Below are positions 41,423-59,838 of a DNA stretch of 60,053 bases, piece after piece. Made by a program: the position numbers and the translations under genes. Below the pieces are notes generated by a model. It was not told the DNA's origin. It was given only the letters and a program-made list of their open reading frames with translations, and searched no databases. How positions within the stretch are numbered: position 1 is the stretch's first letter; every line of letters starts with the position of its first letter. The stretch comes from a phage, in the NCBI GenBank assembly GCA_012409925.1, contig GCA_012409925.1_4804.1; one strand, 5' to 3'.

Positions 41423-42070
41423 TTATCCTGTGGCCTGCATATTGCGTACATACTTCTGCTCTAATGAATAGATGAAGTCGGCGACCGTCAATCCTTTGGT
41501 GTGCCATTCATACATGGTGAAGCCTGTATTCAGGAAATAGCCGCGCACCTTGTCCATCGCTTCAGCTTCCTCCATTGAAGCCATCAGCGCGGCGACGTTG
41601 TCATAAGAAGGCACAAATCCCTTCTTGCGTAGCGCATTGCGCAAATCTTTAGTTCTGAAGCCAATCTTGCAAGGGTCATCGCGACCCGTGGATGATGCAA
41701 CCTTCGGTAGCGCAAGGAACTCTTTAAGGAACATGGCAATGTTCAAGTCGCCTGCATCATCAAGCTTTTGGATTCGGTTGCGACCGCGACCCTTGAATTC
41801 ACTCGCACGAGGGTGAGCGCCAAAACAGTGCGCCCCTTCCAGCTTAGGGTCAATGATCATCACATCTTTCCCGATGCGCAGCTCTACGTAGTAAAGATAA
41901 GACTCATCGACAAGCTTTGTACGCTTGCAAGTGATTGAGTCCTTATCATAACCAAAGCCACGCAACACGGTTGAGATCATTCGGTTCATTTCTTCGCCGT
42001 GAACGTCACTTTCTTTGTTCAGTTCACCAAGATGTTGAAAGAATTTAGCGATGTTGATTGCTTTATTCAT
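41423..42070 (-). CDS. hypothetical protein, 215 aa
   Basis: ORF track; immediately downstream of helicase gene. Confidence 0.45.
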   Translation of the reverse strand: MNKAINIAKFFQHLGELNKESDVHGEEMNRMISTVLRGFGYDKDSITCKRTKLVDESYLYYVELRIGKDVMIIDPKLEGAHCFGAHPRASEFKGRGRNRIQKLDDAGDLNIAMFLKEFLALPKVASSTGRDDPCKIGFRTKDLRNALRKKGFVPSYDNVAALMASMEEAEAMDKVRGYFLNTGFTMYEWHTKGLTVADFIYSLEQKYVRNMQATG

Positions 42071-43740
42071 CAGAATTCATCCTTATCTCTTCCCAAAGAA
42101 CGTTTACGCTCAATAACCTTCTTCAAGAATTCAATATCTTCAGGGTCAGACTCATCGCGGATAAGATACGCTAAGATGGTCATCAAATCAGAAATGTATT
42201 CTCCTGCTTCATTCTTAATCAGCGGCGTAAAGTACCCGCGCTGGTTGCGATAGGTTGCAGGCTCAAAACCAAGCTTCGACATGTGCGGCGCAAGGGTACG
42301 AGAGAAAGGCGACTTGCCACACTTCGCTCTGAATCCCATAGCAATAGCACCACTGGTGATGTGCCAGCGTCCGCTGTGATGTCGGTCATAAGGCGCGGTG
42401 ATGACGACTTCAACAAGGTCGTTGTCCACCATCTCATCACGGATAACGCCGCGCGCACGTTCCATTTCGTTTTTACTGAACTCAGTAAGCATTCGAGATG
42501 TTTCACCAACAAACGCGTTATAGCCTGCTTCGCCGTTCTTCTCCATCCACGCAGCGCACTCAGCCATAAGCTGCCAAACGTCTTCTTTCAAAGTGGAAAG
42601 GTCGGCTTGGAAGTCCTTAGACCAGTTCGGTTGCCCGTCCTTGTCAGCGAGTTGGCCAACAAAGATAGGGTACACACGACGGTTGCCCGTGTCGTCACGC
42701 TGCATGCCTGCGTATTCGTTGCCGTCCATGATCGCAATCCACTGGCGTGGTTTAACCTGCGTATCTTCAAATTTGAAGTCCAGGTCATCTTCCGTCTTAG
42801 TCAGGAATGCTTTCATGTTTTCGATGTCGGCCTTTTTAAAGCCTGTCATCTCGCCGACGTTCGCGATAATTGAGCGACCCGTAATAGCTCGCAAGAACGG
42901 GTTGAAGTTTTGCGCGGCTAAGTTCAACGGAATCGGTGTTGCGTGGCGGTCGTTCATAATAGCTTCGCAAAGCAGCTTGCTAAAATAACTCTTCCCTGCG
43001 TTCTGGCCGCCGATGAGCGCGATGGAGATTGGCGCTTGACAGCCAGGGTTGGTCAGGCGGTTGTAGAGCGATAGCCAAAAATACACACCGATTTGTCGGT
43101 TTAACTCTGTATCGAACGGTCGGAATAGCTCGATAAGGTATTTCTCGATGCGCGCAGTACCGTCCCATTCAGGCAGCTTCTTGTAGAAGAAGTCCATCAG
43201 GTCGTCGCGCTGATAACGCATGGCCCATTCCTTATAGGATTGAGCGACCTGACGTGAGTTTGGGTTGGACAACCCTGCTGCGTCGACAGCAGCGACTATC
43301 TCTGTGACTTCCAAGGTACGGTCAGTGAATGTTTCGCCGCGATGGTCGACTAAGCGCCCACGAAAAGTATCTTTGTGAGGGAATGGAACAATGCCACTTC
43401 CCTTATCAAACAACGCGTCGAAAACCGCATAACGGTTCATGTCACTCGTCCGGTCTGCCTGTAGAACGAAGTCATCTTTGGTAGGCTTGTAGTGAGGGAA
43501 CTTGATTACCTGAAGTGAGGCGAGCAAGCGTGCTCTTTCAACCAAGTCTTCTTCACCGTAGCATTCCATGCGCTCTGAATCTTTTTCAACAGCTTTGTGT
43601 TGAAGGCTGATTTTAGCTCTGGTGCCTTGCTGCTCTGCTGCCTGCATTTCTTCCGAAACACCTGCATCTTGAATTTCGTCAAAGATTGCACCAAATTCAT
43701 CACCTGTATCCTCTGGAAGATTGTCATTATTAATTGACAT
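42070..43740 (-). CDS. VirE/D5-like replicative NTPase (helicase-primase-associated)
   Basis: 556 aa; P-loop ...IALIGGQNAGKSYF...; conserved LPEWDGTARIEKYL segment; AGGAGG RBS. Confidence 0.6.
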   Translation of the reverse strand: MSINNDNLPEDTGDEFGAIFDEIQDAGVSEEMQAAEQQGTRAKISLQHKAVEKDSERMECYGEEDLVERARLLASLQVIKFPHYKPTKDDFVLQADRTSDMNRYAVFDALFDKGSGIVPFPHKDTFRGRLVDHRGETFTDRTLEVTEIVAAVDAAGLSNPNSRQVAQSYKEWAMRYQRDDLMDFFYKKLPEWDGTARIEKYLIELFRPFDTELNRQIGVYFWLSLYNRLTNPGCQAPISIALIGGQNAGKSYFSKLLCEAIMNDRHATPIPLNLAAQNFNPFLRAITGRSIIANVGEMTGFKKADIENMKAFLTKTEDDLDFKFEDTQVKPRQWIAIMDGNEYAGMQRDDTGNRRVYPIFVGQLADKDGQPNWSKDFQADLSTLKEDVWQLMAECAAWMEKNGEAGYNAFVGETSRMLTEFSKNEMERARGVIRDEMVDNDLVEVVITAPYDRHHSGRWHITSGAIAMGFRAKCGKSPFSRTLAPHMSKLGFEPATYRNQRGYFTPLIKNEAGEYISDLMTILAYLIRDESDPEDIEFLKKVIERKRSLGRDKDEF

Positions 43741-46292: not shown

Positions 46293-46619
46293 ATGAACGA
46301 AAAAGAGACGAAGCAACGCGAGCGTGCAACACACGTCGGAATCGTTGAGTCCTTCCTTAATACAAGATTGAATTCAAGCCTAACAATCATGCGATTCCTG
46401 GGTCAACCAGACAGAATCAAATTTATTTTTGCCGCAAATCCGGTATCGCTGTACATCCCTGTTGAATCCATGGCATACTTGGTGCGCGACGAGAAAGGAT
46501 GGAAGATACCAAACACAACTGTTTTCTTCAGCCATGTTGATGGTGAGATGTTTGAACGAAAAGAAGATTGCCATTTTATTCCAGTATATCTGGACCTTGA
46601 CAGCGTAGTGGAGTTATAA
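46293..46619 (+). CDS. hypothetical protein, 108 aa
   Basis: ORF track; first gene of plus-strand replication block after divergent AT-rich region. Confidence 0.45.
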   Translation: MNEKETKQRERATHVGIVESFLNTRLNSSLTIMRFLGQPDRIKFIFAANPVSLYIPVESMAYLVRDEKGWKIPNTTVFFSHVDGEMFERKEDCHFIPVYLDLDSVVEL

Positions 46620-47803
46620 TGAATATTCCAGAATTTAATGATGAGCCAGTTATTCAGTTTAACGCGCAACAAATCGATGCCATCGAGAAGGCCGTTGCAT
46701 GGTACAAGCGATTGCAGGACGGTAAAACGACGAAGCGTGTGTTTTTCATTGCTGGCTATGCAGGGACTGGTAAAACCTCTATTGCTCGTGAGATTGTGCG
46801 CCGCTGTGTCGGTGAGTACGGCGCTATCTATATTGCGCCGACCGGAAAGGCTGCAAGCCGATTAAAGCAAAAAGGCTGTCGTGGCGCTAAGACCCTTCAC
46901 CAGTTCATCTATAACGTGCGCGGCGTAAATGACGACAATGAGCCAATCTTTTCGAGAAAGTCAAAGCTGGATGAAAGGCCGCACCTTGTTGTACTCGATG
47001 AAGCGTCGATGGTTGGCGAGTGGGACACAGAGCGCCTTCTTGATCACCGCATCCCTGTCCTGGCATTAGGCGACATTGGACAAGTCCCTCCGGTAAAAGC
47101 CGCCGCCTACTTTACTGAAGATGCCGTTGACGTACTGTTAACCGAAATCATGCGGCAAGGGAAAGAGTCCAACATAATCCGCGCCTCCTTCTTCGTGCGC
47201 CAAGGCAACCGCCTTCCTCCGCGTGAATACGATGACGTCAAAGTATTGGCAGAATCGCCGCGCGTTACTGCATTGAAGAAATTCATGGGCGAGGATGATC
47301 AAATTATTTGCTCCTATAATAGCACCAAAGATAAATGGAATTCATTATTACGGCAAGTGAGCGGACGTATAACGCCAATGCCAGGAATCGGCGAGAAGGT
47401 TATTTGCACCTTCAACCAGCACGGGCCAGGATTCTGTAATGGTGAGCAGGGGATTGTTATTAGCTATGAGCCAGTGCCGGACTTTGAAAGGGATGAAGAT
47501 GAGTCGAATGAAATAATGTATGTCAACTTGCGTTCATTGACTGATGGTAAAGATATAAAGGTAAAGATTAATCCTCTTTCCTTCTCTACTGATCAGGAAG
47601 TGCGCAAAGAAGCGCAACGCGCTGTTGGCGGGATGGACTATGGCTATGTCATCACGGTGCACAAATCGCAAGGCAGCGAGTGGGACAATGTGTGCGTGCT
47701 GGAAGAAATCTTGCGCGGCGTTCCGTACTCCAAGATGATGTACACCGCTATCACCCGTGCTAAGAAGAATCTGACCGTGTACCGTGATTTGAAAGCGCGT
47801 TAA
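46619..47803 (+). CDS. Dda/RecD-like SF1 DNA helicase
   Basis: Walker A GYAGTGKTS, Walker B VVLDEASMV, C-terminal ...YGYVITVHKSQGSEWDNVCVL... motif. Confidence 0.8.
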   Translation: MNIPEFNDEPVIQFNAQQIDAIEKAVAWYKRLQDGKTTKRVFFIAGYAGTGKTSIAREIVRRCVGEYGAIYIAPTGKAASRLKQKGCRGAKTLHQFIYNVRGVNDDNEPIFSRKSKLDERPHLVVLDEASMVGEWDTERLLDHRIPVLALGDIGQVPPVKAAAYFTEDAVDVLLTEIMRQGKESNIIRASFFVRQGNRLPPREYDDVKVLAESPRVTALKKFMGEDDQIICSYNSTKDKWNSLLRQVSGRITPMPGIGEKVICTFNQHGPGFCNGEQGIVISYEPVPDFERDEDESNEIMYVNLRSLTDGKDIKVKINPLSFSTDQEVRKEAQRAVGGMDYGYVITVHKSQGSEWDNVCVLEEILRGVPYSKMMYTAITRAKKNLTVYRDLKAR

Positions 47804-47961
47804 TGTTGACGTAAATTTACGAAAAATAAAACTGAAAATCAGTTTAATTAAAGTGGCATTGCCGCCATAGTTTTTAGTTGCTACTGGCGGCGACTGAAGG
47901 CATAATTAAGTTATCCCAAACGGGGAATATAAATAAACTAATTTATTTAAGGACTGTGAAT

Positions 47962-49931: not shown

Positions 49932-49996
49932 TTTGCTTTCTGCTTCAATGGGCGTATACTTTAATCATTGAAGCAGAACTCATAGAGGAAACGAAA

Positions 49997-50443
49997 ATGA
50001 AACGCATCACTGGAATCGCGCTTGCCGCGACTGCTATTCTCGGAACCATGTATATGGAAGCGACTGAAGCCGCTGTCCGTACTTCCGATTCAATCGCTGT
50101 TTACGATTGCGAAGCGATGGACGGCAAGACCGCAGCGACGACTGGCGCAACAATTACCACTTACATCGGTGTGAACGAGCAAGAAGGTCTGAATATTCAG
50201 ATTCAGGGATTCACCGGAAAAGGTGCCAACCGGACTCCGTGGATGCAGCGTTTCACTTTCGTTCAGCCTCGTTCAACTGGCGGCTTTATTAACCTGATTG
50301 GGGAAAACCGTTCTGGTGCAGAAATCTTTACATCAATGAGTTCTAATAATGAACCAAAGAAAAGTTTTCAGTTGCTTTATAACGCACAATTCGTTTATCA
50401 TTGCACCTTCTCTGGTGATCAGCAACTAGTGAATTACCGTTAA
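49997..50443 (+). CDS. secreted/periplasmic protein, 148 aa
   Basis: N-terminal signal-peptide-like MKRITGIALAATAILGTMYMEA; two Cys in mature part. Confidence 0.45.
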   Translation: MKRITGIALAATAILGTMYMEATEAAVRTSDSIAVYDCEAMDGKTAATTGATITTYIGVNEQEGLNIQIQGFTGKGANRTPWMQRFTFVQPRSTGGFINLIGENRSGAEIFTSMSSNNEPKKSFQLLYNAQFVYHCTFSGDQQLVNYR

Positions 50444-50456
50444 TAGGATAATTAAA

Positions 50457-51260
50457 ATGAAAGTTGAATTAATTCGATACACCCAAGATGCACTTGACCT
50501 TTTGCTGGAAACAAAGAACACGCGCATGATTGGTAAGCCAGTCTCTGAGATGACAGAATCAGAGAAGCAAGAGCACTGGCGCTACATGCTTGATACAATC
50601 AAGTCGCCTTTTGACTTTGTGGACTATATCTTTGACATCACTGATGTATCAAAGAATATGACTCATCAGATGGTGCGCACACGCACAGGTGCATATCAAG
50701 AACGCACAAGCCGCGCTCAGGAGTCGTCAGCATTTGATGCGATTCGTCCTGCCAAATTTACTTACCCAGAGGATGATCCAAAGGGATGGACTCGTCATGA
50801 CGAGAAGGCTGCTGAACTGGCAGAGAAATGGGATGATGCAATGGCAACCATTGACGCCCTATACCAAGAACTTCGCGCGGCTGGCGCAGAGATTCAAGAT
50901 GCACGTGCCGTGTTGCCTTCTAATATGCAAACGCATATCATGGCAAAGTTCAACTTGCGCACGCTGCAGCAGATGGCGTCAAACCGCTTGTGCACGCGCA
51001 CCCAAGGCGAGTATCAAGAAGTATTCCGCGCAATGGTTGCGGAAGTCCTCAAGGTGCACCCGTGGGCAAATCCACTATTACAGCCGCAATGCATCGGTAT
51101 GGGTAAATGCGCGTTTCCTCGTCATGGCAAAGCCCATTGCCCTTGGTATCGTGATTGGATGGATACCACGGCACAGCAAGAAGAGTTGCGCATCCAGTTT
51201 TGGAGTGCAATGCCAATCACCAACAATCCAGTTGCTAAAGATGGAGTATCAAAAGGATGA
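50457..51260 (+). CDS. thyX: divergent flavin-dependent thymidylate synthase (ThyX)-like protein
   Basis: ...MTHQMVRTRTGAYQERTSRAQES... and ...ARAVLPSNMQTHIMAKFNLRTLQQMASNRLCTRTQGEYQEV... align with ThyX signature blocks, but RHR is RTR and a Cys-rich C-terminal tail is appended. Confidence 0.55.
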   Translation: MKVELIRYTQDALDLLLETKNTRMIGKPVSEMTESEKQEHWRYMLDTIKSPFDFVDYIFDITDVSKNMTHQMVRTRTGAYQERTSRAQESSAFDAIRPAKFTYPEDDPKGWTRHDEKAAELAEKWDDAMATIDALYQELRAAGAEIQDARAVLPSNMQTHIMAKFNLRTLQQMASNRLCTRTQGEYQEVFRAMVAEVLKVHPWANPLLQPQCIGMGKCAFPRHGKAHCPWYRDWMDTTAQQEELRIQFWSAMPITNNPVAKDGVSKG

Positions 51261-52132
51261 GCATTAAAAACAGCGAAATCTTAAACGTATTCGACCTTGA
51301 CGGAACGCTGTTTGATGACCGTTGGCGCTTAGACCGCATCAAGGTGGCAGGTCCGTTGTCAGACTATGATGACTATCACAGCGGTATTGGTTATGATCAG
51401 TTCTATCCTCACATTGCATCAGCAGTAGAGTCGGCATCTCTTCGCGGTGAGGCGGTTGAATATTGGACTGCAAGGCCAGAAAAATACAGACAAGTGACTT
51501 TTGAACGTCTAGACAATGTTTTCCCTTTTGATGAATTTACAATCAAGATGAGAGACTATGGCGACAAACGTCCATCAACTATTATGAAATCTGCATGGCT
51601 ATCGCACGCTTTGCGGCACGGCGATTATCGAATCATCAATGTATTCGACGACCGACAAGACGTACTCGCGCGGATGCAAGAAGAAGCTTTGCACTATAAT
51701 TCCATGGCGCAAAATAAAATCGCCTTTACATTTAATCTTTGCAAGGCAGGTGAAGTGGTGCAACAATTAGCAGTTGATCCAAGTGCAACAGGGAAAGAAG
51801 AGACTAAACTTGTTGAAGTTGAACAACAAGCCCCAGCAACCGCTGCTGATATTCTTGATGCGATGGCCGCGACCTTCCGTGAGCGCAATGCCGTTTATGG
51901 CGATAACGCTGTGATGGTAGGTCAGGTTATGCAGGTGTTGTTCCCTAATGGCGTAACTTTGAAGACACCGGAAGACTACCACATGTGGCATCTGTTCGAG
52001 CTTAAGATTGTCAAGCTTACACGCTTCGCAATCAGCGGCCTGAAGCACGAAGACTCAATACACGACGATGGTGTTTATAGCGCCATGTGTGAACGTCTTG
52101 TTAACACCCATAATATTAATTTCAATAAATAG
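51257..52132 (+). CDS. HAD-superfamily phosphatase-like protein
   Basis: N-terminal motif I ...VFDLDGTLFD...; ATGA overlap with ThyX-like gene. Confidence 0.55.
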   Translation: MSIKNSEILNVFDLDGTLFDDRWRLDRIKVAGPLSDYDDYHSGIGYDQFYPHIASAVESASLRGEAVEYWTARPEKYRQVTFERLDNVFPFDEFTIKMRDYGDKRPSTIMKSAWLSHALRHGDYRIINVFDDRQDVLARMQEEALHYNSMAQNKIAFTFNLCKAGEVVQQLAVDPSATGKEETKLVEVEQQAPATAADILDAMAATFRERNAVYGDNAVMVGQVMQVLFPNGVTLKTPEDYHMWHLFELKIVKLTRFAISGLKHEDSIHDDGVYSAMCERLVNTHNINFNK

Positions 52133-52161
52133 TTTACTTGTGCGTTTCGATGAGTTATATT
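52133..52161 (+). promoter_or_regulatory. candidate sigma70-type promoter with conserved hairpin/leader (copy A)
   Basis: TTTACT, 17-nt spacer, TATATT; spacer and leader GATGAGTTATATTTACCTCATCGAAACGAA nearly identical to element at 58976-59006. Confidence 0.45.
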
Positions 52162-52197
52162 TACCTCATCGAAACGAAGTCCAAAAAGGATAAATAA

Positions 52198-52881
52198 ATG
52201 AAAAAAGTAATTGTTGTAACAGGTTCCAATTCCGGTCTTGGTAAATCTATTTTTGACACCCTTGGCGCTTACGGTCATAACGTGCTTGGCATCGATTCAG
52301 CATACGGACATGACGTCCGCGATGCTAAACAGATGAAAGAAATTTTAAGCCCATATGATGTTGAAGGCTTGATCAACTGTGCTGGTGTCAACTCTAACAA
52401 TTGGTTTGAAGATGTAAACTATGAAGAGTTTAACCGCGTTATGCACACCAACGCATTCTCTTTCGTTAACACGACTCAGGCTGCGCTGAAAAGTCTTATC
52501 GACAACAAAGGCTTTGTGATCAACATCGTTTCCAACGCTGCGCATATTCCTATGACGTCCAGCTTGTGTTATAATGCATCCAAGGCCGCTGCGCTTATGA
52601 TCAGCAAGCAGATGGCTCACGAACTTACGCCTAAGTACGGCATCACGGTATTCTCTATTAGTCCTAACAAGTTACGCGGCACTGGCATGTCTAAACAGAT
52701 TGAAGATGCCGTTTGTGCGACTCGCGGCTGGACTCCTGAATACGCTGCTGAATACCAGAAAAAGGCATTGATGAACGGATTGGAGACTGAGCCGCAAGTA
52801 ATTGCTGACTTCATTCGCCATATCTTAATTACGGGCGCATGGCGCTTTATGTCTGGTACTGATATTCCATTTGGTAAATAA
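52198..52881 (+). CDS. short-chain dehydrogenase/reductase (SDR)
   Basis: Cofactor motif VVTGSNSGLGKS and catalytic Y-x3-K (YNASKAA); 227 aa. Confidence 0.65.
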   Translation: MKKVIVVTGSNSGLGKSIFDTLGAYGHNVLGIDSAYGHDVRDAKQMKEILSPYDVEGLINCAGVNSNNWFEDVNYEEFNRVMHTNAFSFVNTTQAALKSLIDNKGFVINIVSNAAHIPMTSSLCYNASKAAALMISKQMAHELTPKYGITVFSISPNKLRGTGMSKQIEDAVCATRGWTPEYAAEYQKKALMNGLETEPQVIADFIRHILITGAWRFMSGTDIPFGK

Positions 52882-52971
52882 ATCAAGAACATTTGAAGTT
52901 GTCGCTGCTCCTGAAAAACAGGACGAAGACAACACAGTAATTAATCAATAATATTTAATTAAGGAAACAAA

Positions 52972-53523
52972 ATGCCACATTTTAAAATTGAACAAATCGC
53001 CCTGTCAATTCCAGGTGCTCAGCGCGCACAGAATTTCCTGGCTAAAATCGGCCTGACAGAATGGTTCCATGATCACGTTGTTGCTACTGGTCGCGTATTT
53101 GAAGCTGATGTCTTTAAGGGTCAGCGCGGCGATTGCACCAACGAAGCTGACTTGCGCTTCAACTATCAGGCTGGCAACGGCACCGATGGCGGCGCTGGTA
53201 AGCCTCTTGAGCTTGAAATTCTTGACTATACAAAAGGTTGCAACTGGATTCACGAAAACATCGAATACATCGATGCGCACGACAATCAGGTTAGCCATCT
53301 TGGTATGCACGTGACTGCCGCTGAACTTGCTGAATGGCGCAAGTTCTTTAAAGAAGAAGGCATTCAGGTTGCGCAGGAAGTTGTGACCGACTCTCACACC
53401 AACCCAAACATTGCTGGTCAGCGTCGTTACAACTATGTGATCTTTGATACGCGTGAAATCATTGGTGTCGACCTTAAGTTCATCGTGCGGTTGAATCAAG
53501 ACGGTACTCCGTACACTGTATAA
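52972..53523 (+). CDS. hypothetical protein, 183 aa (VOC/glyoxalase-like candidate)
   Basis: ORF track; weak resemblance to vicinal-oxygen-chelate fold (HxGxxV, conserved Glu); low confidence. Confidence 0.3.
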   Translation: MPHFKIEQIALSIPGAQRAQNFLAKIGLTEWFHDHVVATGRVFEADVFKGQRGDCTNEADLRFNYQAGNGTDGGAGKPLELEILDYTKGCNWIHENIEYIDAHDNQVSHLGMHVTAAELAEWRKFFKEEGIQVAQEVVTDSHTNPNIAGQRRYNYVIFDTREIIGVDLKFIVRLNQDGTPYTV

Positions 53524-53539
53524 CGAATCGTGAATCTGT

Positions 53540-53565
53540 GGCCGTCCTAATGGGCGGCCTTTTTG
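53540..53565 (+). terminator. rho-independent terminator
   Basis: GGCCGTCC-taat-GGGCGGCC followed by TTTTTG. Confidence 0.55.
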
Positions 53566-53577
53566 TAGGAGGCTAAT

Positions 53578-54120
53578 GTGTTATTTCTCCCTTATGACTT
53601 CGAAACAACCGGATTGACCGTGCACCCGAAAGCGCCGCTTGGGATGCAGCCGCGCCCTATTGAATTTGCAGGCCTGTTGACAGACGGCAAAGAGATTATT
53701 GAAACGTTTGAATTCATAATTAATCCTGAAATCGTGATTGAAGAAATTATCACAAAGATTACCGGATTAACAAATGAAGACCTTGAGTGCAATCCACCGT
53801 TCATCAATTTCGTCCCGCAGCTAAAAGAAATCTTCAAGAAGACTGATGCAACTATCGCGCACAACCATGCGTTCGATAAAAACATTCTTGATTATGCACT
53901 ACAGCGCGAAGGACTTACGCTTGATGATGTTAATTTTCCAGAAATAAACATATGTACAGTTGAGCAAACCTTGCCTATTTTTGGCCGAAGAGTTAAGCTT
54001 CAAGAGCTGTATGAATTATATTTCGGAAAATATGAACAGAAACACCGTGCATTAGACGACGTAATATTACTGCACAAAGTCTGCCAACAAATTGGCGTAT
54101 ATGACATCTGGAGTAAATAA
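53578..54120 (+). CDS. DnaQ-like 3'-5' exonuclease (DEDDh)
   Basis: GTG start with GGAGG RBS; Exo I YDFETTG, Exo II AHNHAFD, Exo III HRALDD. Confidence 0.75.
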   Translation: MLFLPYDFETTGLTVHPKAPLGMQPRPIEFAGLLTDGKEIIETFEFIINPEIVIEEIITKITGLTNEDLECNPPFINFVPQLKEIFKKTDATIAHNHAFDKNILDYALQREGLTLDDVNFPEINICTVEQTLPIFGRRVKLQELYELYFGKYEQKHRALDDVILLHKVCQQIGVYDIWSK

Positions 54121-57017
54121 TGTTTCCACAATTGAGAGTTCGCAGCGGTTACACGTTCAAAGAAGTTTATGGACGGCATCCTGAAATTATAGCACGGCTC
54201 AAAGAGTTGGGCTGCGAAGTCGCGGCATTAGTTGATAACAACACATGGGGTCACGTTCGCTGGGAAAAGGAATGCCAGAAAAATGATATTAAGCCTATGT
54301 TTGGGATGGAGATTCCAATCATCGACCCTGATGCGGACCCTAAAAAGGGATTCAAACCGAAGGCTTGGATATTGGCCCTTGACTTAAAATCTTTTTACAA
54401 TGCTACAACACTTTCAACGCAGCGCGGTGGGCTTACCCGTGCAGAGTTCGGTGCGCTCGATGGCGTCGTTAAATTCTGTGGCGGTGCCGTGGAGTTGCTG
54501 CGGCCAGAGGACTACGACTATATAGACGTCAACCCATCATCGTTCCTTTTGGCAAAGCGCCAGGCATTGGCTCATCGTAGCAGTGGAAGGCCGCTGGTTT
54601 TAACCGGATACAATCACATGCCTTCTCCTGAGCACGTTGACTTCGCTTATGCTTGGGAAGTGCGCGACACGGTCAAGCCGCACTGCATCGTTGACGCGGA
54701 AGACTTGCGCAAACAGCTTAAAGGCATCTTGACTGAAGATGAGCTCAATCAGGCAACGGCCAATGCTGTTGACATAGCAAACGGCATAGTCGGACTTGAC
54801 CTGAAATTGCGTAAGGCACCGATTATTCACCTTGCTGGTGACATGGTAAAGCTTGCGCGTGAGGGGATGGAGTACCGTCTAAAAGCAGGTCACATCAAAG
54901 AATGGACTCAGGAATATGAGGACCGCTTCAACGAAGAAATTCACCAGATTCAGCTGAAAGATTTCGACTCATACTTTCTGGTAGTAGCAGACCTTGTACG
55001 ATTCGCAAAAACAAAAATGCTCGTCGGTCCTGCTCGCGGCTCATCGGCTGGTTCACTTGTTTGCTATTGCCTCGGCATCACGGAAGTGGACCCAATCCCG
55101 TATAAGCTGCTGTTTGCCCGATTCATCGACGTAAGTCGCGCCGACCTTCCTGACATCGACATCGACTTTGAAGATACCAAACGCTATATGGTGTTTGATT
55201 ATCTTAAAGAGAAATACGGCGAAATGAACGTTGCAAAGCTTGGCAACATCAACACGCTTAAGGCCAACTCAGTAATGGCTCAAGTTGGTAAGAAGTTCAA
55301 CATTGGATACCACGAAACAGCCAACATTAAAAACGCACTGCTTGAATACTCATCCGGTGACGCCCGTTATGGTCACGGCCTGGAGGATACCTTTGCAACA
55401 ACGACCACGGGTCAAGAGTTCGTGGCTAAATATCCTGATGCCGCGCGTTGCATGGGTGACCTTGAGATTCACCCGTCCCACACAGGTGTTCACGCAGCGG
55501 GAATCATTGTGTGTAATGACCCAATCTCTGATTACTGTACTGTAACTGCAGAAGGGATTGCGCAAATCGATAAGCCTGACAGCGAATACCTAAACCTTTT
55601 GAAGCTTGATGCGCTGGGCCTTCGTACTCTCGGCATTATTTCTGATACAGGCGTTATTGATGCTGAAACGCTCTACGGAATCAAGCTTGATGATCAAAGC
55701 GTCCTTGACATTCTTAACGAAAACAAGATGTCAGGCATCTTCCAGTTTGAAGGTGATGCTGTACGCTCAGTAACAAACTTTGTTCACGTCGATAACTTTA
55801 ACAAAATCGACAACCTGACAGCTTTGGGTCGACCTGGCCCGTTGTCATCCGGTATGGCCCAGAAATACATTGAACGCGCGGCAGGGCGTGCGCCGATTGA
55901 ATACGACGTGCCGCAGCTTGAGCCGTACTTAAAAGAGACTTACGGCGTGTTTCTTTACCAAGAGCAAATCATGGCCGTGGTTAAAGAGATTGGTTCATTT
56001 GACTGGGCGAAAACGTCCGCTGTACGTAAGGCGATGTCAGGCCGTAAGGGTGAAGAATACTTTAACAAGCTTGGCGAAGACTTCGTTGCAGGAGCAATAA
56101 ATAACGGTGTACCGGAAGCGGATGCAAGAAAGCTTTGGCAAGCGATGGCCACGTTCGGGTCATGGGGCTTTAACAAGTCACACTCCGTGTCATACGCGGT
56201 CGTGACCTACTGGACATTGTGGCTTAAGCGACACTACCCGTTGGAATTTGCCGCAGCCTGCTTACGCGCTGCTAAGGACGAAGACCAGACGATTGCGATA
56301 TTACGTGAACTTGCGAAGGAAGGCGTGGATTACGTTCCAATCGACCCTGATCACTCTTCGATGAACTGGACCATCGCGAACGGAAAGCTAATCGGCGGCA
56401 TCATGAACGCGAAAGGGTACGGAATGGTGAAGGCGATGAAGTATATCGAAGCACGTGAAGCCGGAACCTTAACGCAAAAGCAAAAGGATGCATTGGCCAA
56501 TGCTGAAGTTAAATACGGCGACCTTACAGAGATGCACACCAAGTTCGGCTGGGCATATAATGACCCCTATCTGATTGGCGTTACTTCCGGTGCTTCAATA
56601 CGCCAGATGAAGGAAGTCGGCGATGACGAGCGCGCAATAGTAATCGGCAAGTTGACCAAGAAAGTGCTGGCAGACGAGAACGAAGCAACACGCATCCGTA
56701 AACGTCTTGAGCGCGGCATTTATACAAAGCACGGCAAACTTAAAAAGGGTCTTCAAGCTGATGGCCGCTACGCAGAGTTTGACCAGTATGGAAACAAGCT
56801 TGAGACTCAGTTCATCGACCTTATGTGCAAAGACGACTCGACCGACTCGCCAATGCGCTTCAGGATTCGTCCAGAGAAGTTCCAGAAGTACGGGAAGTAC
56901 ATCGCTGAAAACGTCGGGAACGGCGCATTCTTCCTGATGAAAGGTCGTAAGCTTGAAGGCATTGACATGTTCATCGTTGACGTGATCAAACAGGTGTATC
57001 CAGATGGCAACAAATAA
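54120..57017 (+). CDS. dnaE: DnaE-type (family C) DNA polymerase catalytic subunit
   Basis: 965 aa; palm motifs ...GPARGSSAGSLVCYCLGITEVDP... and ...FARFIDVSRADLPDIDIDFE...; N-terminal PHP-like LRVRSGYTF lacks canonical His residues. Confidence 0.8.
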   Translation: MFPQLRVRSGYTFKEVYGRHPEIIARLKELGCEVAALVDNNTWGHVRWEKECQKNDIKPMFGMEIPIIDPDADPKKGFKPKAWILALDLKSFYNATTLSTQRGGLTRAEFGALDGVVKFCGGAVELLRPEDYDYIDVNPSSFLLAKRQALAHRSSGRPLVLTGYNHMPSPEHVDFAYAWEVRDTVKPHCIVDAEDLRKQLKGILTEDELNQATANAVDIANGIVGLDLKLRKAPIIHLAGDMVKLAREGMEYRLKAGHIKEWTQEYEDRFNEEIHQIQLKDFDSYFLVVADLVRFAKTKMLVGPARGSSAGSLVCYCLGITEVDPIPYKLLFARFIDVSRADLPDIDIDFEDTKRYMVFDYLKEKYGEMNVAKLGNINTLKANSVMAQVGKKFNIGYHETANIKNALLEYSSGDARYGHGLEDTFATTTTGQEFVAKYPDAARCMGDLEIHPSHTGVHAAGIIVCNDPISDYCTVTAEGIAQIDKPDSEYLNLLKLDALGLRTLGIISDTGVIDAETLYGIKLDDQSVLDILNENKMSGIFQFEGDAVRSVTNFVHVDNFNKIDNLTALGRPGPLSSGMAQKYIERAAGRAPIEYDVPQLEPYLKETYGVFLYQEQIMAVVKEIGSFDWAKTSAVRKAMSGRKGEEYFNKLGEDFVAGAINNGVPEADARKLWQAMATFGSWGFNKSHSVSYAVVTYWTLWLKRHYPLEFAAACLRAAKDEDQTIAILRELAKEGVDYVPIDPDHSSMNWTIANGKLIGGIMNAKGYGMVKAMKYIEAREAGTLTQKQKDALANAEVKYGDLTEMHTKFGWAYNDPYLIGVTSGASIRQMKEVGDDERAIVIGKLTKKVLADENEATRIRKRLERGIYTKHGKLKKGLQADGRYAEFDQYGNKLETQFIDLMCKDDSTDSPMRFRIRPEKFQKYGKYIAENVGNGAFFLMKGRKLEGIDMFIVDVIKQVYPDGNK

Positions 57018-57426
57018 CCGTGAGCAGAAATACATATTCGTGCCTTTGAAGAAGCATTCAGAATCGGTATTGAAGCTTCAACGAATCGAGTCGATGACTG
57101 GTGATGGCGTGCCGGACGTAATCGGCACCAACCGGAAAGGGCGCGGCTTTTGGCTTGAAATGAAGTTCTTTGAATCGTGGCCTGCAAGGGCCACCACTGC
57201 ACCTTTCAGAAATGCATTTGAGAAAGGCCAGTGCAGCTTTCTTTCTTCGTGGAATGATTGGAAATACCCATCATTTGTTTTGCTTAAAGTCGATTCTGAG
57301 AAGATGTTTTATTTAGTCCACCCTTCTATTGAATTAAAGCGTTATAATACTGCAGACGTTCAACGTGAGATAATCGTGAAGGGAACTATTCATCACATCA
57401 TCAAGTATTTAGAGGAATTGTCATGA
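57004..57426 (+). CDS. VRR-NUC domain nuclease
   Basis: PD-(D/E)xK-type motifs ...GDGVPDVIG... and ...GFWLEMKF...; overlaps DnaE stop. Confidence 0.6.
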   Translation: MATNNREQKYIFVPLKKHSESVLKLQRIESMTGDGVPDVIGTNRKGRGFWLEMKFFESWPARATTAPFRNAFEKGQCSFLSSWNDWKYPSFVLLKVDSEKMFYLVHPSIELKRYNTADVQREIIVKGTIHHIIKYLEELS

Positions 57427-58946
57427 AAACACAAGGAATGCGCCACCAATTATTGGCGCTTGATAAAGCAGGCCGCAGAAAATACTTTGCTTATTTTATG
57501 GAACAGGGTCTTGGTAAAACCTGGACTGCTTTGGCAGAGTTTGAAAAACACTTCGCCGCTGGCGCATTTGATGCCATGGTTGTCATCGCTCCTAACGGTG
57601 TCCACTCGAACTGGATTCGTCGTGAAGCACCAGAACACCTTTCCATTAAATGGATTGGTCATTACTGGCGCGGAAATGACAAGATGAAAACTAAAAAGGG
57701 TAAAGCCATTTGGGAGAAGATGTTTGCTGATCACTATCCTGAAGGTGAAGTGCCTGCGCGCATCTTCTCATTCAACATCGATACTGTCAACACACCAGTC
57801 GGTTATCAACACATCGAGTCGGTCTTGAAGAAATACCGCTGTTTGATGATCATTGATGAATCGACGCGTATCAAAAATAACACAGCCAAACGCTCCATCA
57901 AGGTTGTAGAATTGGGGCGGCTGGCAAAGGCCCGTCGCATACTTTCCGGCACGCCGCTGCCGCGCTCGCCTGCTGATATTTACATGCAGTATCACTTCCT
58001 TGAAGCTGGCTTGCTTGGCACCAAATCGTTCCGTGCATTTAACTCTGAATTCACAGTACTGCTTGAAGCGCACGACCCAGAGATGCAGGCCATTCTCAAG
58101 AAAATCGGCGGCAGTGGCTATGGGATTCCGCAAGTGCCGCGCAAAGACCAGTTTGGCCGACCGATGTACAAGAACCTTGACAAGCTTATCCGGCTGATGG
58201 AACCGCACTATTTCCGCGCGACAAAAGCGGAATACCTGCCGGACCTTCCAGAGAAGGTGTACAAGTTTATCGACTTCGAGTTGTCGCCTAAGCAGCGCGA
58301 TGTCTATGATGAACTCAAGAATGAGTACAACTATCTTATGGAATACAAAGGCGAAGAAGAAAACGTTAAGTTTGAGATGATCGCGTCTCGCACTAAGATG
58401 AAGCAGGTGACATCAGGCTTTGTTAAGGTGTATGATGAGATGGTCTACATGGAAGACAACCCACGATTCACGGCCTTTAAGGACTATGTGGAAGGGGTGC
58501 TGGAAGACGACCCAGAGCGCAAATTCATCGTGTGGGCCATCTTTAAGGAAGAGATGAACCAGATTAAGGATTGGCTTGAGTCTGAAGGAGTGGTCACTGG
58601 TGTGTATAACGGTGAGACGTCAAAAGAGCAGCGTGAGTTCTTGATTGATGACTTCCAGAAAAACACAGTCGAGAACGGTGGAACACAAGTCTTGGTTTGC
58701 CACGCTGCAGCGGCAGGCATCGGAATCACGCTTACCGCCGCCGACTTGGCAATCTATTATTCTTGCAACTATGACAACGAGCTGCGCAAGCAATCCGAAG
58801 ACCGAAATCACCGCATCGGCACCAAATCAAGCGTGTTGTATGTTGATTTTATTGGGGTTGATACCATCGACGAAGAAATTCAGCGTTCACTGAGTATGAA
58901 GTCCATGCTTGCTGATCACATCCTCGACGGCAAAAAGATGAATTAA
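57423..58946 (+). CDS. SNF2-family helicase/ATPase
   Basis: Motif I EQGLGKTW, motif II MIIDESTRIKN (DExx); 507 aa; adjacent to VRR-NUC gene. Confidence 0.75.
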   Translation: MKTQGMRHQLLALDKAGRRKYFAYFMEQGLGKTWTALAEFEKHFAAGAFDAMVVIAPNGVHSNWIRREAPEHLSIKWIGHYWRGNDKMKTKKGKAIWEKMFADHYPEGEVPARIFSFNIDTVNTPVGYQHIESVLKKYRCLMIIDESTRIKNNTAKRSIKVVELGRLAKARRILSGTPLPRSPADIYMQYHFLEAGLLGTKSFRAFNSEFTVLLEAHDPEMQAILKKIGGSGYGIPQVPRKDQFGRPMYKNLDKLIRLMEPHYFRATKAEYLPDLPEKVYKFIDFELSPKQRDVYDELKNEYNYLMEYKGEEENVKFEMIASRTKMKQVTSGFVKVYDEMVYMEDNPRFTAFKDYVEGVLEDDPERKFIVWAIFKEEMNQIKDWLESEGVVTGVYNGETSKEQREFLIDDFQKNTVENGGTQVLVCHAAAAGIGITLTAADLAIYYSCNYDNELRKQSEDRNHRIGTKSSVLYVDFIGVDTIDEEIQRSLSMKSMLADHILDGKKMN

Positions 58947-58959
58947 TATCAAAAATAAT

Positions 58960-58988
58960 TTGACTTGTCATGGAAGATGAGTCATAAT
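58960..58988 (+). promoter_or_regulatory. candidate sigma70-type promoter with conserved hairpin/leader (copy B)
   Basis: TTGACT, 17-nt spacer, CATAAT; spacer and leader GATGAGTCATAATTACTTCATCGAAACGAA nearly identical to element at 52149-52179. Confidence 0.45.
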
Positions 58989-59020
58989 TACTTCATCGAA
59001 ACGAAACAGAGGAATACAAA

Positions 59021-59284
59021 ATGGTACGCATCCTTGAACGTTACAAAAATGAAGCTACTGGCGCAATCGCTTTCAAACGTCTTTTGGTCAAAGAAATTGA
59101 CGGGATGTTCCGCGTTGTTAAAGAGTTTGATTATGGCAACGGTGCTGGGGTGAATACCGTTATTATGCCTGGCATCAAGGCATATAAAACCTTAAAAGGC
59201 GCTGAGAAGGCTTTGGCGGCTTGGAAACCTGAACGTTATCAAATGACCCGTGTTGAAGGGCTAATGCAAGAAGGTAAAATATGA
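59021..59284 (+). CDS. hypothetical protein, 87 aa
   Basis: ORF track. Confidence 0.45.
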   Translation: MVRILERYKNEATGAIAFKRLLVKEIDGMFRVVKEFDYGNGAGVNTVIMPGIKAYKTLKGAEKALAAWKPERYQMTRVEGLMQEGKI

Positions 59285-59838
59285 GCAATATTAATTGGGA
59301 AGATGATTTGCCGCAGGTTGCTCCTGAGAGCATTCAAGAGCGCCTTGCGCGCTTAGTGTCTGAACTGGCAGAACGCCAAGAAGCTTTGACAGAGCTTGAA
59401 GATGAAGCTGATATGCAAAAGCAGCGCATCAGCGAAATCAAAACTGTTCTGCTTCCTGGCGTTATGGATGAGCTTGGCGTGTCCGAAATCAAGCTTGAGG
59501 ACAAGACCAAAATCAAGGTCGAGTCCAAGGTGAATGCTTCGATCAAGAAAGAAAACGAATTAAAAGTTTTCGATTGGCTTGTCAACAACGGTTACGGCGG
59601 CCTGATCAAGTCCAGCGTCACGGCTGAGTTCGGTCGCGAAGAAATCGAACAGGCGCAAGAGATTGTTGCCGCGCTGCGTGAAGATGGTGTTGAAGCCACA
59701 CTGAAACAAGGCGTTCATTCTGCTACACTGAAGTCCTTTGTAAAAGAACAGCTGGAAGCAGGCAATCCAGTTAGTGAAGATATTAGCGTTTTTGAATACA
59801 AAGAAGCTAAAATAACCTTGCCTAAAAGCAAAAAGTAA
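59281..59838 (+). CDS. hypothetical acidic coiled-coil protein, 185 aa
   Basis: ORF track; ATGA overlap with upstream gene. Confidence 0.45.
   Translation: MSNINWEDDLPQVAPESIQERLARLVSELAERQEALTELEDEADMQKQRISEIKTVLLPGVMDELGVSEIKLEDKTKIKVESKVNASIKKENELKVFDWLVNNGYGGLIKSSVTAEFGREEIEQAQEIVAALREDGVEATLKQGVHSATLKSFVKEQLEAGNPVSEDISVFEYKEAKITLPKSKK

What the first reader, a model, noticed from the sequence alone, without database searches (positions are those of the whole stretch)
53578..58946. Replication module composition: DnaE-type polymerase with degenerate PHP motif and separate DnaQ-like proofreader, plus VRR-NUC/SNF2 pair
The phage encodes a family-C polymerase whose N-terminal PHP-like motif reads LRVRSGYTF (His residues of the canonical metal site replaced), preceded by a stand-alone DEDDh exonuclease and followed by a VRR-NUC nuclease and an SNF2 ATPase. 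Together with the PrimPol-like primase, VirE-like NTPase and Dda-like helicase elsewhere, this is a largely self-sufficient replisome.
Basis: partly seen in the sequence, partly recalled or inferred. Interest (0 to 1): 0.35.

Follow-up and report, generated by a model that had tools for sequence, protein, structure and literature searches.

The report
Known phage DnaE replication gene module
This is the ordinary, already annotated replication gene block of a Wifcevirus coliphage (proofreading exonuclease, Pol III alpha-type polymerase, a small junction-cutting nuclease and an SNF2 motor); the only corrections are that the small nuclease looks like RecU/Hjc rather than VRR-NUC and that the replisome is not shown to be self-sufficient.

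Summary
The four ORFs exist exactly as described, and three of the four family assignments hold. The window is a Wifcevirus-type E. coli myophage, 98% identical over this stretch to phage Bas101.

- **Exonuclease (53578-54120):** DEDDh type, with all five catalytic residues.
- **Polymerase (54120-57017):** C-family DnaE with an intact catalytic triad. Only 1 of 9 canonical PHP metal ligands remains and no histidine sits where the consensus has one (E. coli keeps 4 of 9).
- **SNF2 ATPase (57423-58946):** confirmed.

The four genes overlap end to end. Their order is conserved in Pbunavirus, Carpasinavirus and Tabernariusvirus. A 2025 Pbunavirus paper already describes the same set: alpha and epsilon homologues, resolvase, SNF2-like translocase, primase, Dda-like and self-loading helicases, ligase.

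"Largely self-sufficient" is overstated. No clamp, clamp loader or SSB is recognisable, and the exonuclease lacks epsilon's polymerase-binding tail. Low interest; already known.

The parts
53540..53566 (+). Terminator-like hairpin (GGCCGTCC-TAAT-GGGCGGCC, then T5) that closes the upstream gene, just before the module
   Evidence: Read directly; listed as 8 pairs, 7 of them G-C. Terminator-like sites as a class are not enriched in the region (8 found against 7.4 expected), so this is a single strong consensus match, not proof of function.
53567..53572 (+). Shine-Dalgarno AGGAGG, 5 nt before the GTG start of the exonuclease gene
   Evidence: Sequence. The same start is annotated in Bas101.
53578..54120 (+). 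DEDDh 3'-5' exonuclease, 180 aa (DnaQ/epsilon and PolC-exonuclease type), catalytic domain only
   Evidence: RNase_T 3.4e-22; PHROG 192 'DNA polymerase exonuclease subunit' 1.3e-37; PolC and epsilon NCBIfam models at 1e-16 to 1e-19; PDB 2p1j PolC exonuclease 2.2e-6. D7, E9, D100, H156 and D161 align with E. coli epsilon D12, E14, D103, H162 and D167. There are no residues beyond the catalytic domain.
54120..54839 (+). Polymerase residues 1-240: PHP-like domain with a degenerate metal site (includes LRVRSGYTF, nt 54132-54158)
   Evidence: Pfam PHP 8.3e-6, residues 5-95 only. MAFFT and hhalign against E. coli DnaE, read with Table 1 of PMC3666897, give the nine ligand positions as R6, R8, E15, N40, E64, no His at position 6, G122, H166, P168.
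54840..56504 (+). Polymerase residues 241-795: palm, thumb and fingers of a DnaE-type C-family polymerase
   Evidence: DNA_pol3_alpha 3e-63 and finger 1e-37. PDB Taq and E. coli Pol III alpha about 1e-85, aligned over query residues 240-798. D345, D347 and D497 correspond to E. coli D401, D403 and D555.
56505..57017 (+). Polymerase residues 796-965 plus the stop codon: family-specific C-terminal domain of unknown fold
   Evidence: Conserved across 113 phage homologues. No Pfam or PDB match even with a family profile. hhalign to the E. coli alpha C-terminus gives probability 6.8%. An OB-fold reading is my guess only.
57004..57426 (+).
57423..58946 (+). SNF2-family ATPase/translocase, 507 aa, bare two-lobe motor
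   Evidence: SNF2-rel_dom 1e-21, Helicase_C 5.9e-11; PHROG 62 at 1e-106; best PDB match is the Sulfolobus SNF2/Rad54 core 1z63 at 3.5e-21; GLGKT at residue 29 and DEST at 145.
42070..43740 (-). VapE/VirE-like NTPase (candidate replicative or self-loading helicase), outside the finding's coordinates
   Evidence: PF05272 1.3e-28; PHROG 4630; the Pbunavirus counterpart is discussed in PMC12390725.
45050..46132 (-). RepB'-type (archaeo-eukaryotic primase superfamily) primase
   Evidence: PF16793 4.5e-36; PHROG 4861 'DNA primase'.
46619..47803 (+). Dda-like SF1B helicase
   Evidence: AAA_30 1.9e-22, UvrD_C_2 6.2e-13, PIF1 2.8e-7; annotated 'Dda-like helicase' in Bas101.

Best explanation
The stretch is the core replication and recombination operon of a Wifcevirus-type coliphage. 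Four translationally coupled genes encode (1) a DEDDh exonuclease, (2) a DnaE-type C-family DNA polymerase, (3) a small dimer-type PD-(D/E)xK nuclease of the RecU/Hjc/VRR-NUC resolvase group, and (4) an SNF2 dsDNA translocase.

Shown here:
- the family assignments and catalytic residues;
- near-complete loss of the PHP metal ligands;
- absence of epsilon's tail from the exonuclease;
- the gene overlaps and the conserved gene order.

Inferred:
- The polymerase is the phage replicase, since it is the only polymerase annotated in near-identical genomes.
- Its PHP domain serves as a structural scaffold, as in E. coli alpha.
- The separate exonuclease supplies proofreading in trans or as a loosely bound subunit made in step with the polymerase.
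- The SNF2 motor remodels or branch-migrates forks and junctions, and the resolvase-like nuclease cuts them. This would support recombination-dependent replication and removal of branches from concatemers before packaging. It resembles RuvAB-RecU or Rad54-Mus81 in logic.
- Priming and unwinding come from the AEP-type primase, the VapE-like NTPase and the Dda-like helicase encoded upstream.
- Processivity and ssDNA-binding factors are either host-derived or among the unannotated phage proteins.
For: Identity of the window: 98% nucleotide identity to Bas101 and 94-97% to more than 25 other Wifcevirus genomes. Domains. Catalytic residues are intact in the polymerase (D345, D347, D497) and the exonuclease (D7, E9, D100, H156, D161). 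PHP ligand map: R6, R8, E15, N40, E64, no His at position 6, G122, H166, P168, against the consensus H H D/H H E H C/H D/N H. R at positions 1 and 2 and P at position 9 are essentially invariant in 113 phage homologues. Loss of PHP ligands co-occurring with a separate epsilon-type exonuclease is documented for bacteria (PMC3666897). Coupling: the exonuclease TAA and the polymerase ATG share one base (TAATG), polymerase and nuclease overlap by 14 nt, and nuclease and SNF2 overlap as ATGA. The order exonuclease-polymerase-nuclease-SNF2 is conserved in Pbunavirus Ab27, Carpasina and tabernarius. Nuclease: invariant D, E-x-K and Q; confident model; the top structural neighbours are all Holliday-junction resolvases. 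An independent description of the orthologous Pbunavirus set, including 'Holliday junction resolvase' and an SNF2-like translocase, is in PMC12390725.
Against: No biochemical data exist for any of these proteins. The exonuclease lacks the epsilon C-terminal segment that tethers epsilon to the alpha PHP domain, and also lacks the clamp motif, so a physical polymerase-exonuclease complex is unproven. The polymerase C-terminal 170 aa has no detectable homologue and no clamp-binding motif was recognised, so the source of processivity is unknown. The nuclease model shows only short first and second core strands (24-27 and 39-42). A RecU-style extended stalk, which fits into the junction centre, is therefore not evident. 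The functional link between SNF2 and the nuclease rests on gene order alone.
Confidence: 0.8

Rival explanations
1. The 140-aa protein is a true VRR-NUC family nuclease, paired with SNF2 as in many phages and in FAN1-type proteins.
Confidence: 0.12
2. The DEDDh exonuclease is not the polymerase's proofreader. It acts alone, for example by degrading host nucleic acids, processing RNA or oligonucleotides, or removing signalling nucleotides.
For: PF00929 also covers RNase T, oligoribonuclease and other non-replicative enzymes. The protein has no epsilon-like tail or clamp motif to tether it to a replisome.
Against: Its best matches are PolC-type and epsilon exonuclease models. Its stop codon overlaps the polymerase start codon. 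Exonuclease-polymerase adjacency is kept across at least four phage genera. The polymerase PHP site cannot plausibly supply proofreading itself.
Confidence: 0.12
3. The DnaE-like protein is a specialised repair or error-prone polymerase (DnaE2/ImuC-like), and the host Pol III holoenzyme replicates the phage genome.
For: It has a degenerate PHP domain and lacks a recognisable tau-binding C-terminus, which loosely resembles DnaE2-type enzymes. There is an NCBIfam hit to 'error-prone DNA polymerase' PRK05672 at 331 bits.
Against: DnaE1-type models score much higher (PRK05673 496 bits, TIGR00594 476 bits, above its cut-off). It is paired with a proofreading-type exonuclease. It is the only polymerase annotated in the near-identical Bas101 genome. 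It is highly conserved (56-99% identity) in the listed homologues, many from about 65-73 kb phage contigs.
Confidence: 0.04
4. The nuclease-SNF2 pair serves counter-defence or DNA-modification functions rather than replication and recombination. For example, a translocase could help to install or read a sequence-specific thymidine hypermodification.
For: SNF2 ATPases also occur in defence and modification systems; there is a weak hit to ZorD. Pbunavirus relatives carry hypermodified thymidine in a TG context. Wifcevirus phages resist restriction without a known mechanism. Nucleotide-metabolism genes lie immediately upstream.
Against: The pair is translationally coupled to the polymerase. Its structural neighbours are junction resolvases, not modification enzymes. 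The SNF2 protein is a bare motor with no reader or modification domain.
Confidence: 0.08

Closest known systems
Replication module of Pbunavirus phages (e.g. Pseudomonas phage Banzai genes 056-059; PB1, 14-1, Ab27)
   Same: The gene order ThyX - PNKP-like - exonuclease - DnaE polymerase - small nuclease - SNF2 - ... - MazG - ligase is the same. The published interpretation matches: alpha and epsilon homologues, a Holliday junction resolvase, an SNF2-like translocase, a primase, a Dda-like helicase and a self-loading helicase (PMC12390725).
   Different: Protein identity is only about 32% for the nuclease. Wifcevirus and Carpasinavirus have an SDR gene and a roughly 170-183-aa unknown gene inserted before the exonuclease. 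This phage has H166 where most of the family has D at PHP position 8.
E. coli Pol III core (alpha DnaE plus epsilon DnaQ)
   Same: Both pair a C-family polymerase having an inactive, arginine-substituted PHP site (E. coli LRVHS, phage LRVRS) with a separate DEDDh proofreader. The catalytic triads align residue for residue. The co-evolution of PHP decay with a separate exonuclease is documented (PMC3666897).
   Different: The phage keeps 1 of 9 canonical PHP ligands against 4 of 9 in E. coli. The exonuclease has no QTSMAF clamp motif and no alpha-binding C-terminal segment. The polymerase is 965 aa rather than 1160 aa, with no detectable OB, tau-binding or clamp-binding region. No theta, clamp or clamp loader is encoded.
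RecU Holliday-junction resolvase (Bacillus; PDB 1zp7, 1rzn, 1y1o, 2fco)
   Different: The phage protein is 140 aa against about 200 aa, with 12-14% identity. It does not reach the Pfam RecU model; only 1 of 81 relatives hits it, at 0.0011. An extended RecU stalk is not evident in the model, and there is no N-terminal region. The hosts are Gram-negative and the genomic partner is SNF2, not RuvAB.
Stand-alone bacterial and phage VRR-NUC domains (PDB 4qbn, 4qbo) and the FAN1 nuclease domain
   Same: They share the PD-(D/E)xK core with the GxPD...ExK signature, are small proteins, and in phage genomes are often found with SNF2 or helicase genes.
Rad54-type SNF2 motors (Sulfolobus SNF2 core 1z63; Rad54 working with Mus81)
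   Same: 1z63 is the best solved-structure match to the SNF2 protein (3.5e-21). Both are minimal two-lobe dsDNA translocases. The pairing of an SNF2 motor with a structure-specific nuclease is an analogy from general knowledge, not tested here.
   Different: The phage protein has no accessory domains, and no evidence here shows that it binds the nuclease or migrates junctions.

Membership tests
C-family DNA polymerase, DnaE type (Pol III alpha) | Palm/NTPase and finger domains matching the DnaE models above curated thresholds | tested here: met
   PF07733 at 214 bits (cut-off 23.9) and PF17657 at 129.5 bits (cut-off 22); TIGR00594 at 475.8 bits (cut-off 434.35); E. coli and Taq alpha about 1e-85.
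C-family DNA polymerase, DnaE type (Pol III alpha) | Three catalytic aspartates (E. coli D401, D403, D555) | tested here: met
   D345, D347 and D497 lie in conserved contexts PDIDID and KLDALGL.
C-family DNA polymerase, DnaE type (Pol III alpha) | N-terminal PHP domain present | tested here: met
   PF02811 at 26.7 bits against a cut-off of 26.4, residues 5-95. hhalign of the family N-terminus to E. coli residues 5-340 gives probability 98.9%.
Metal-binding (exonuclease-competent) PHP domain | Nine metal ligands H H D/H H E H C/H D/N H (PMC3666897, Table 1) | tested here: not met
   The phage has R6, R8, E15, N40, E64, no His at position 6, G122, H166 and P168. Only position 5 is canonical.
E. 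coli-type replicase alpha subunit (holoenzyme-integrated DnaE1) | Clamp-binding motif, OB fold and tau-binding C-terminal domain | tested here: inconclusive
   Equivalog models fall far below their cut-offs (PRK05673 496 bits against 1002). Residues 796-965 have no Pfam or PDB match. hhalign to the E. coli C-terminus gives 6.8%.
DEDDh (DnaQ/epsilon-like) 3'-5' exonuclease | Exo I (DxE), Exo II (D) and Exo III-epsilon (Hx4D) residues | tested here: met
   D7 and E9, D100, and H156 and D161 align to epsilon D12, E14, D103, H162 and D167. PF00929 at 80.2 bits (cut-off 24).
Pol III epsilon subunit proper (DnaQ) | C-terminal segment that binds the alpha PHP domain, and the clamp-binding motif after the catalytic domain | tested here: not met
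   The protein ends at residue 180, equivalent to about epsilon residue 186. There is no counterpart of QTSMAF or of epsilon residues 190-243. dnaQ_proteo TIGR01406 scores 43.9 bits against a cut-off of 222.7.
VRR-NUC (PF08774) | Match to the VRR_NUC profile | tested here: not met
   The window protein has no hit at E <= 0.01. 4 of 81 relatives hit weakly, best 0.0027.
VRR-NUC (PF08774) | Closest structural neighbours are VRR-NUC domains | tested here: not met
PD-(D/E)xK nuclease superfamily, junction-resolvase group (RecU/Hjc/VRR-NUC) | alpha-beta-beta-beta-alpha-beta core with a D ... (D/E)xK catalytic signature | tested here: met
RecU (PF03838) | Match to the RecU profile, and the extended stalk formed by the first two strands | tested here: inconclusive
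   The family profile hits RecU chains at 0.003-0.004, but only 1 of 81 members hits PF03838, at 0.0011. The model has short strands 24-27 and 39-42, so an extended stalk is not evident. No superposition output was available.
Holliday-junction resolvase (function) | Dimeric, structure-specific cleavage of four-way junctions | not testable with these tools
   This needs biochemistry. Only fold and active-site similarity are shown here.
SNF2 family ATPase | SNF2 N-terminal lobe with Walker A and DExx motifs, plus the Helicase_C lobe | tested here: met
   PF00176 at 77.8 bits (cut-off 24.9) and PF00271 at 43 bits (cut-off 23.5); GLGKT at 29 and DEST at 145; 1z63 at 3.5e-21.
Wifcevirus (phage genus) | High nucleotide identity and collinearity with genus members | tested here: met
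   Identity is 94-98% over the full 5.4 kb to WFC, WFH, Bas98-101, FEC19 and others. Gene order is identical to Bas101.

The most novel reading that the evidence does not exclude
This phage lineage may run a stripped-down C-family replicase that works differently from the bacterial holoenzyme. It has a PHP scaffold with every histidine ligand removed, an epsilon-like exonuclease with no tether, and a lineage-specific 170-aa C-terminal domain in place of the clamp- and tau-binding modules. That would mean a clamp-independent or differently tethered fast replicase, possibly linked to the reported 3-5 min latent period of Wifcevirus phages and to replication of thymidine-hypermodified DNA. It would be coupled to an SNF2-RecU-like 'resolvasome'.
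Probability: 0.12. Interest if true: 0.55.

Novelty: already known. Interest (0 to 1): 0.15.

Why it matters
The practical value is in annotation and context.

- **Mislabelled gene.** The small gene between the polymerase and SNF2 is labelled "DNA helicase" in PHROG 2165 and across many of the 373 matching phage records, including the therapeutic Pbunavirus phages. It should be annotated as a RecU/Hjc-like junction nuclease.
- **Extreme PHP decay.** These phage DnaE enzymes show the most degraded PHP site described here, 1 of 9 ligands, always next to a separate exonuclease. This extends to phages a co-evolution rule established for bacteria.
- **Experimental system.** Wifcevirus phages now grow on modified E. 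coli K-12 (the BASEL collection) and are reported to replicate unusually fast. That makes them a tractable system for asking how a C-family polymerase works without a recognisable clamp, clamp loader or tau.

None of this is surprising to a specialist. The gene set is already annotated and has been described in print for the sister genus.

Tried and rejected
- **Nuclease, single-sequence model.** A single-sequence AlphaFold run gave pLDDT 40 and was discarded. The run with an 81-sequence alignment was used instead.
- **Nuclease, sequence searches.** phmmer against the PDB found nothing meaningful. The word-indexed homologue search returned only 6 close relatives. The exhaustive representative search supplied the diversity needed.
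- **AlphaFold database search.** The afdb50 fold library was unavailable. BFVD was searched instead. It returned mostly unnamed phage proteins, with RecU, resolvase and VRR-NUC among the named ones.
- **Polymerase C-terminus (residues 796-965).** hhalign to the E. coli alpha C-terminus gave probability 6.8%. A family-profile search of the PDB and Pfam scans of 19 family members gave only chance-level hits.
- **QFIDLM (residues 897-902) as a clamp-binding motif.** Rejected. It does not fit QL[SD]LF or QLxLxL, and it lies inside a strongly conserved, probably structured segment.
- **PHP position 6.** MAFFT placed E. coli H83 against a gap and hhalign placed it against F78. There is no histidine between residues 46 and 151, so the conclusion holds under either alignment.
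- **Exonuclease-polymerase fusions.** I looked for fusions among the 120 listed polymerase homologues as evidence of physical association. None carries an RNase_T domain; the longer proteins appear to carry insertions, one of them an intein domain.
- **331-aa upstream protein.** A PDB sequence search gave nothing.
Full report
**1. What the window is**

The 5.4-kb stretch is 98.0% identical to Escherichia phage VerenaGrendelmeier (Bas101). It is 94-97% identical to more than 25 other Wifcevirus genomes, including WFC, WFH, FEC19, vB_Eco4M-7 and Bas98-100. Gene order matches Bas101 throughout the 45 kb compared. The four genes are already annotated in those records as DNA polymerase (III alpha), exonuclease/epsilon, and one or two "DNA helicases".

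**2. The observation**

The ORF list shows four + strand ORFs at exactly the stated coordinates, of 180, 965, 140 and 507 aa. The polymerase begins MFPQLRVRSGYTF, so the quoted motif is real.

The genes are packed end to end:
- The exonuclease stop and the polymerase start share a base (TAATG).
- The polymerase and the 140-aa ORF overlap by 14 nt.
- The 140-aa ORF and the SNF2 gene overlap as ATGA.

A strong terminator-like hairpin with a T-run (53540-53566) and an AGGAGG ribosome-binding site precede the exonuclease GTG. The four genes therefore look like one translationally coupled unit.

**3. Exonuclease**

Sequence matches:
- RNase_T 3.4e-22.
- PHROG "DNA polymerase exonuclease subunit" 1.3e-37.
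- PolC-exonuclease and epsilon NCBIfam models at 1e-16 to 1e-19, all far below their equivalog cut-offs.
- PDB 2p1j (PolC-type exonuclease) 2.2e-6.

Aligned with E. coli DnaQ, the five DEDDh residues are all present: D7, E9, D100, H156 and D161.

The protein stops at residue 180, where epsilon's catalytic domain ends. It has neither epsilon's QTSMAF clamp motif nor the C-terminal segment that binds the alpha PHP domain (the role of that segment is described in PMC3664792, listed). It is epsilon-like in chemistry, but it is not a DnaQ orthologue in architecture.

**4. Polymerase**

Sequence matches:
- DNA_pol3_alpha 3e-63, finger domain 1e-37, and PHP 8.3e-6 covering residues 5-95 only.
- TIGR00594 above its cut-off.
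- DnaE1-type models score well above the DnaE2 model, 496 against 331 bits.
- E. coli and Taq alpha at about 1e-85 over query residues 240-798.

The catalytic aspartates are intact: D345, D347 and D497.

For the PHP site I used the nine ligand positions tabulated by Barros et al. (PMC3666897, Table 1). I mapped them through a MAFFT alignment of 113 phage homologues plus E. coli DnaE and checked the result with hhalign (probability 98.9%).

| Position | Consensus | E. coli | This phage |
|---|---|---|---|
| 1 | H | R10 | R6 |
| 2 | H | H12 | R8 |
| 3 | D/H | D19 | E15 |
| 4 | H | F44 | N40 |
| 5 | E | D69 | E64 |
| 6 | H | H83 | no His (F78 to W82, depending on the alignment) |
| 7 | C/H | G134 | G122 |
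| 8 | D/N | D201 | H166 |
| 9 | H | R203 | P168 |

Only position 5 is canonical, and no histidine sits at any position where the consensus has one. R at positions 1 and 2 and P at position 9 are essentially invariant across the phage family. Position 8 is D in most members but H here.

The pairing with a separate exonuclease follows the co-evolution pattern already shown for bacteria.

The last 170 residues (796-965) are conserved within the family. They match nothing in Pfam or the PDB, even as a family profile. They do not align credibly with the clamp-binding, OB or tau-binding part of E. coli alpha.

**5. The "VRR-NUC"**

Neither Pfam nor NCBIfam recognises the 140-aa protein. PHROG 2165 calls it "DNA helicase", a label that has spread to hundreds of GenBank records.

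Sequence evidence:
- An exhaustive search found 100 relatives.
- In an 81-sequence alignment, D38, E52, K54 and Q76 are invariant. This is a PD-(D/E)xK signature.
- Scanning the relatives against Pfam gave only weak hits: VRR_NUC in 4, Hjc in 1, RecU in 1.
- The family profile hits RecU chains at 0.003-0.004 and the VRR-NUC structure 4qbo at 0.006.
- The RecU alignment covers D, E-x-K and the following FPLxNFxxHQ-like segment.

Structural evidence:
- With the alignment, AlphaFold gave a confident model, pLDDT 94.9.
- Foldseek gives a similar order, with RecU and Hjc first and VRR-NUC at rank 14.
- Among predicted viral structures, the close neighbours are mostly unnamed phage proteins. The named ones are RecU, "Holliday junction resolvase" and, lower down, VRR-NUC.

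The protein belongs to the junction-resolvase corner of the PD-(D/E)xK superfamily and is nearest to RecU. It is not a VRR-NUC member by any test I could run. An extended RecU stalk is not evident in the model, so I do not file it as RecU either.

**6. SNF2**

SNF2-rel_dom 1e-21 and Helicase_C 5.9e-11. Walker A (GLGKT) and DEST motifs are present. The best solved relative is the Sulfolobus SNF2/Rad54 core, followed by chromatin remodellers. The protein is a bare motor with no accessory domain.

**7. Context and conservation**

The order exonuclease - polymerase - nuclease - SNF2 recurs in Pbunavirus, Carpasinavirus and Tabernariusvirus. It is preceded by ThyX and a PNKP-like gene in Pbunavirus and Carpasinavirus, and followed by a DNA ligase gene in all three, with an annotated MazG gene before it in the first two.

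The nuclease has tblastn matches in 373 phage records, mostly Pseudomonas phages. The listed polymerase homologues come largely from contigs of about 65-73 kb.

The 2025 description of Pbunavirus Banzai already lists the same parts: polymerase and proofreading exonuclease homologous to alpha and epsilon, primase, ligase, a self-loading helicase, a Dda-like helicase, an SNF2-like translocase, and a Holliday junction resolvase between the polymerase and the translocase (PMC12390725).

**8. How it most likely works**

Shown here:
- the enzyme classes and intact active sites;
- the dead PHP metal site;
- the missing epsilon tail;
- the gene coupling and conserved synteny.

Inferred:
- The DnaE protein is the phage replicase. 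It is the only polymerase annotated in Bas101.
- The PHP domain is kept as a structural scaffold, as in E. coli.
- Proofreading is supplied by the co-translated exonuclease.
- The SNF2 motor and the resolvase-like nuclease process forks and recombination intermediates and de-branch concatemers.
- Priming and unwinding come from the RepB'-type primase, the VapE-like NTPase and the Dda-like helicase.

No clamp, clamp loader or SSB is recognisable. The replisome is therefore either partly host-dependent or uses unannotated phage proteins, and "largely self-sufficient" is not established.

**9. Verdict**

This is an already known, annotated module of a named phage genus.

The additions made here are:
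- the residue-level PHP map;
- the missing epsilon tail;
- the unassignable polymerase C-terminus;
- the reassignment of the "VRR-NUC"/"DNA helicase" gene to a RecU/Hjc-like resolvase.

Interest is low.

Noticed in passing
window 48936-53523 (+): 48936-49931, 50457-51260, 51257-52132, 52198-52881, 52972-53523: Directly upstream of the module lies a run of metabolic genes. They are a 331-aa protein with an N-terminal GGGLAG dinucleotide-binding-like motif (PHROG 4828, function unknown), a ThyX homologue whose motif reads RTR where I recall RHR in canonical ThyX (from memory, not tested), a HAD/PNKP-like protein, an SDR (FabG-like) and a 183-aa protein with no hit at all. Pbunavirus relatives were recently shown to carry sugar-derived hypermodified thymidine at about a quarter of T positions, in a TG context. 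[quoted passage not shown] These genes are candidates for a thymidine-hypermodification pathway in this phage.
   Followed up: partly
window 57004-57426, and 373 phage records: The small nuclease is annotated 'DNA helicase' through PHROG 2165 and in many GenBank and RefSeq phage records, including therapeutic Pbunavirus phages. Sequence and structure show a 140-aa PD-(D/E)xK nuclease, so this is a propagated annotation error.
   Followed up: yes
window 54615-54617 (polymerase residue H166): At PHP ligand position 8 this phage has His, where 106 of 114 family members keep the Asp that E. coli (D201) and the consensus also have. This is a lineage-specific change of unknown meaning.
   Followed up: partly
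proteins P0198, P0219, P0208, P0121, P0157: Some polymerase homologues are 1030-1230 aa and cover only 71-84% of the query. One carries an intein domain (PF14890), so the polymerase gene appears to be an intein or insertion target in some relatives.
   Followed up: no
window 47959-48801 (+), with a mirror ORF at 47983-48792 (-): A 280-aa protein with a long Lys/Ala/Glu-rich low-complexity stretch and a more ordinary C-terminal part (PHROG 4765, function unknown). The long antisense ORF is probably an artefact of the repetitive composition. The protein could be a DNA-binding or histone-like protein.
   Followed up: no
window 58947-59020 and 59021-59838 (+): The 74-nt gap after the SNF2 gene holds a promoter-like site (TTGACT, 17-nt spacer, CATAAT, at 58960-58988). 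Two conserved genes of unknown function follow: an 87-aa protein (PHROG 27467) and a DUF7307 'Pam3 gp33-like' protein (2.6e-37). Genes are annotated in the same positions in Carpasina, and partly in Pbunavirus and tabernarius. They are untested candidates for missing replisome accessory proteins.
   Followed up: no
window 53578-54120: The exonuclease scores better against Gram-positive PolC-exonuclease and actinobacterial DEDD models (65-68 bits) than against the proteobacterial DnaQ model (43.9 bits). By contrast, the polymerase PHP motif (LRVRS) resembles the proteobacterial DnaE1 pattern (LRVHS). The two partners may have different evolutionary origins.
   Followed up: no
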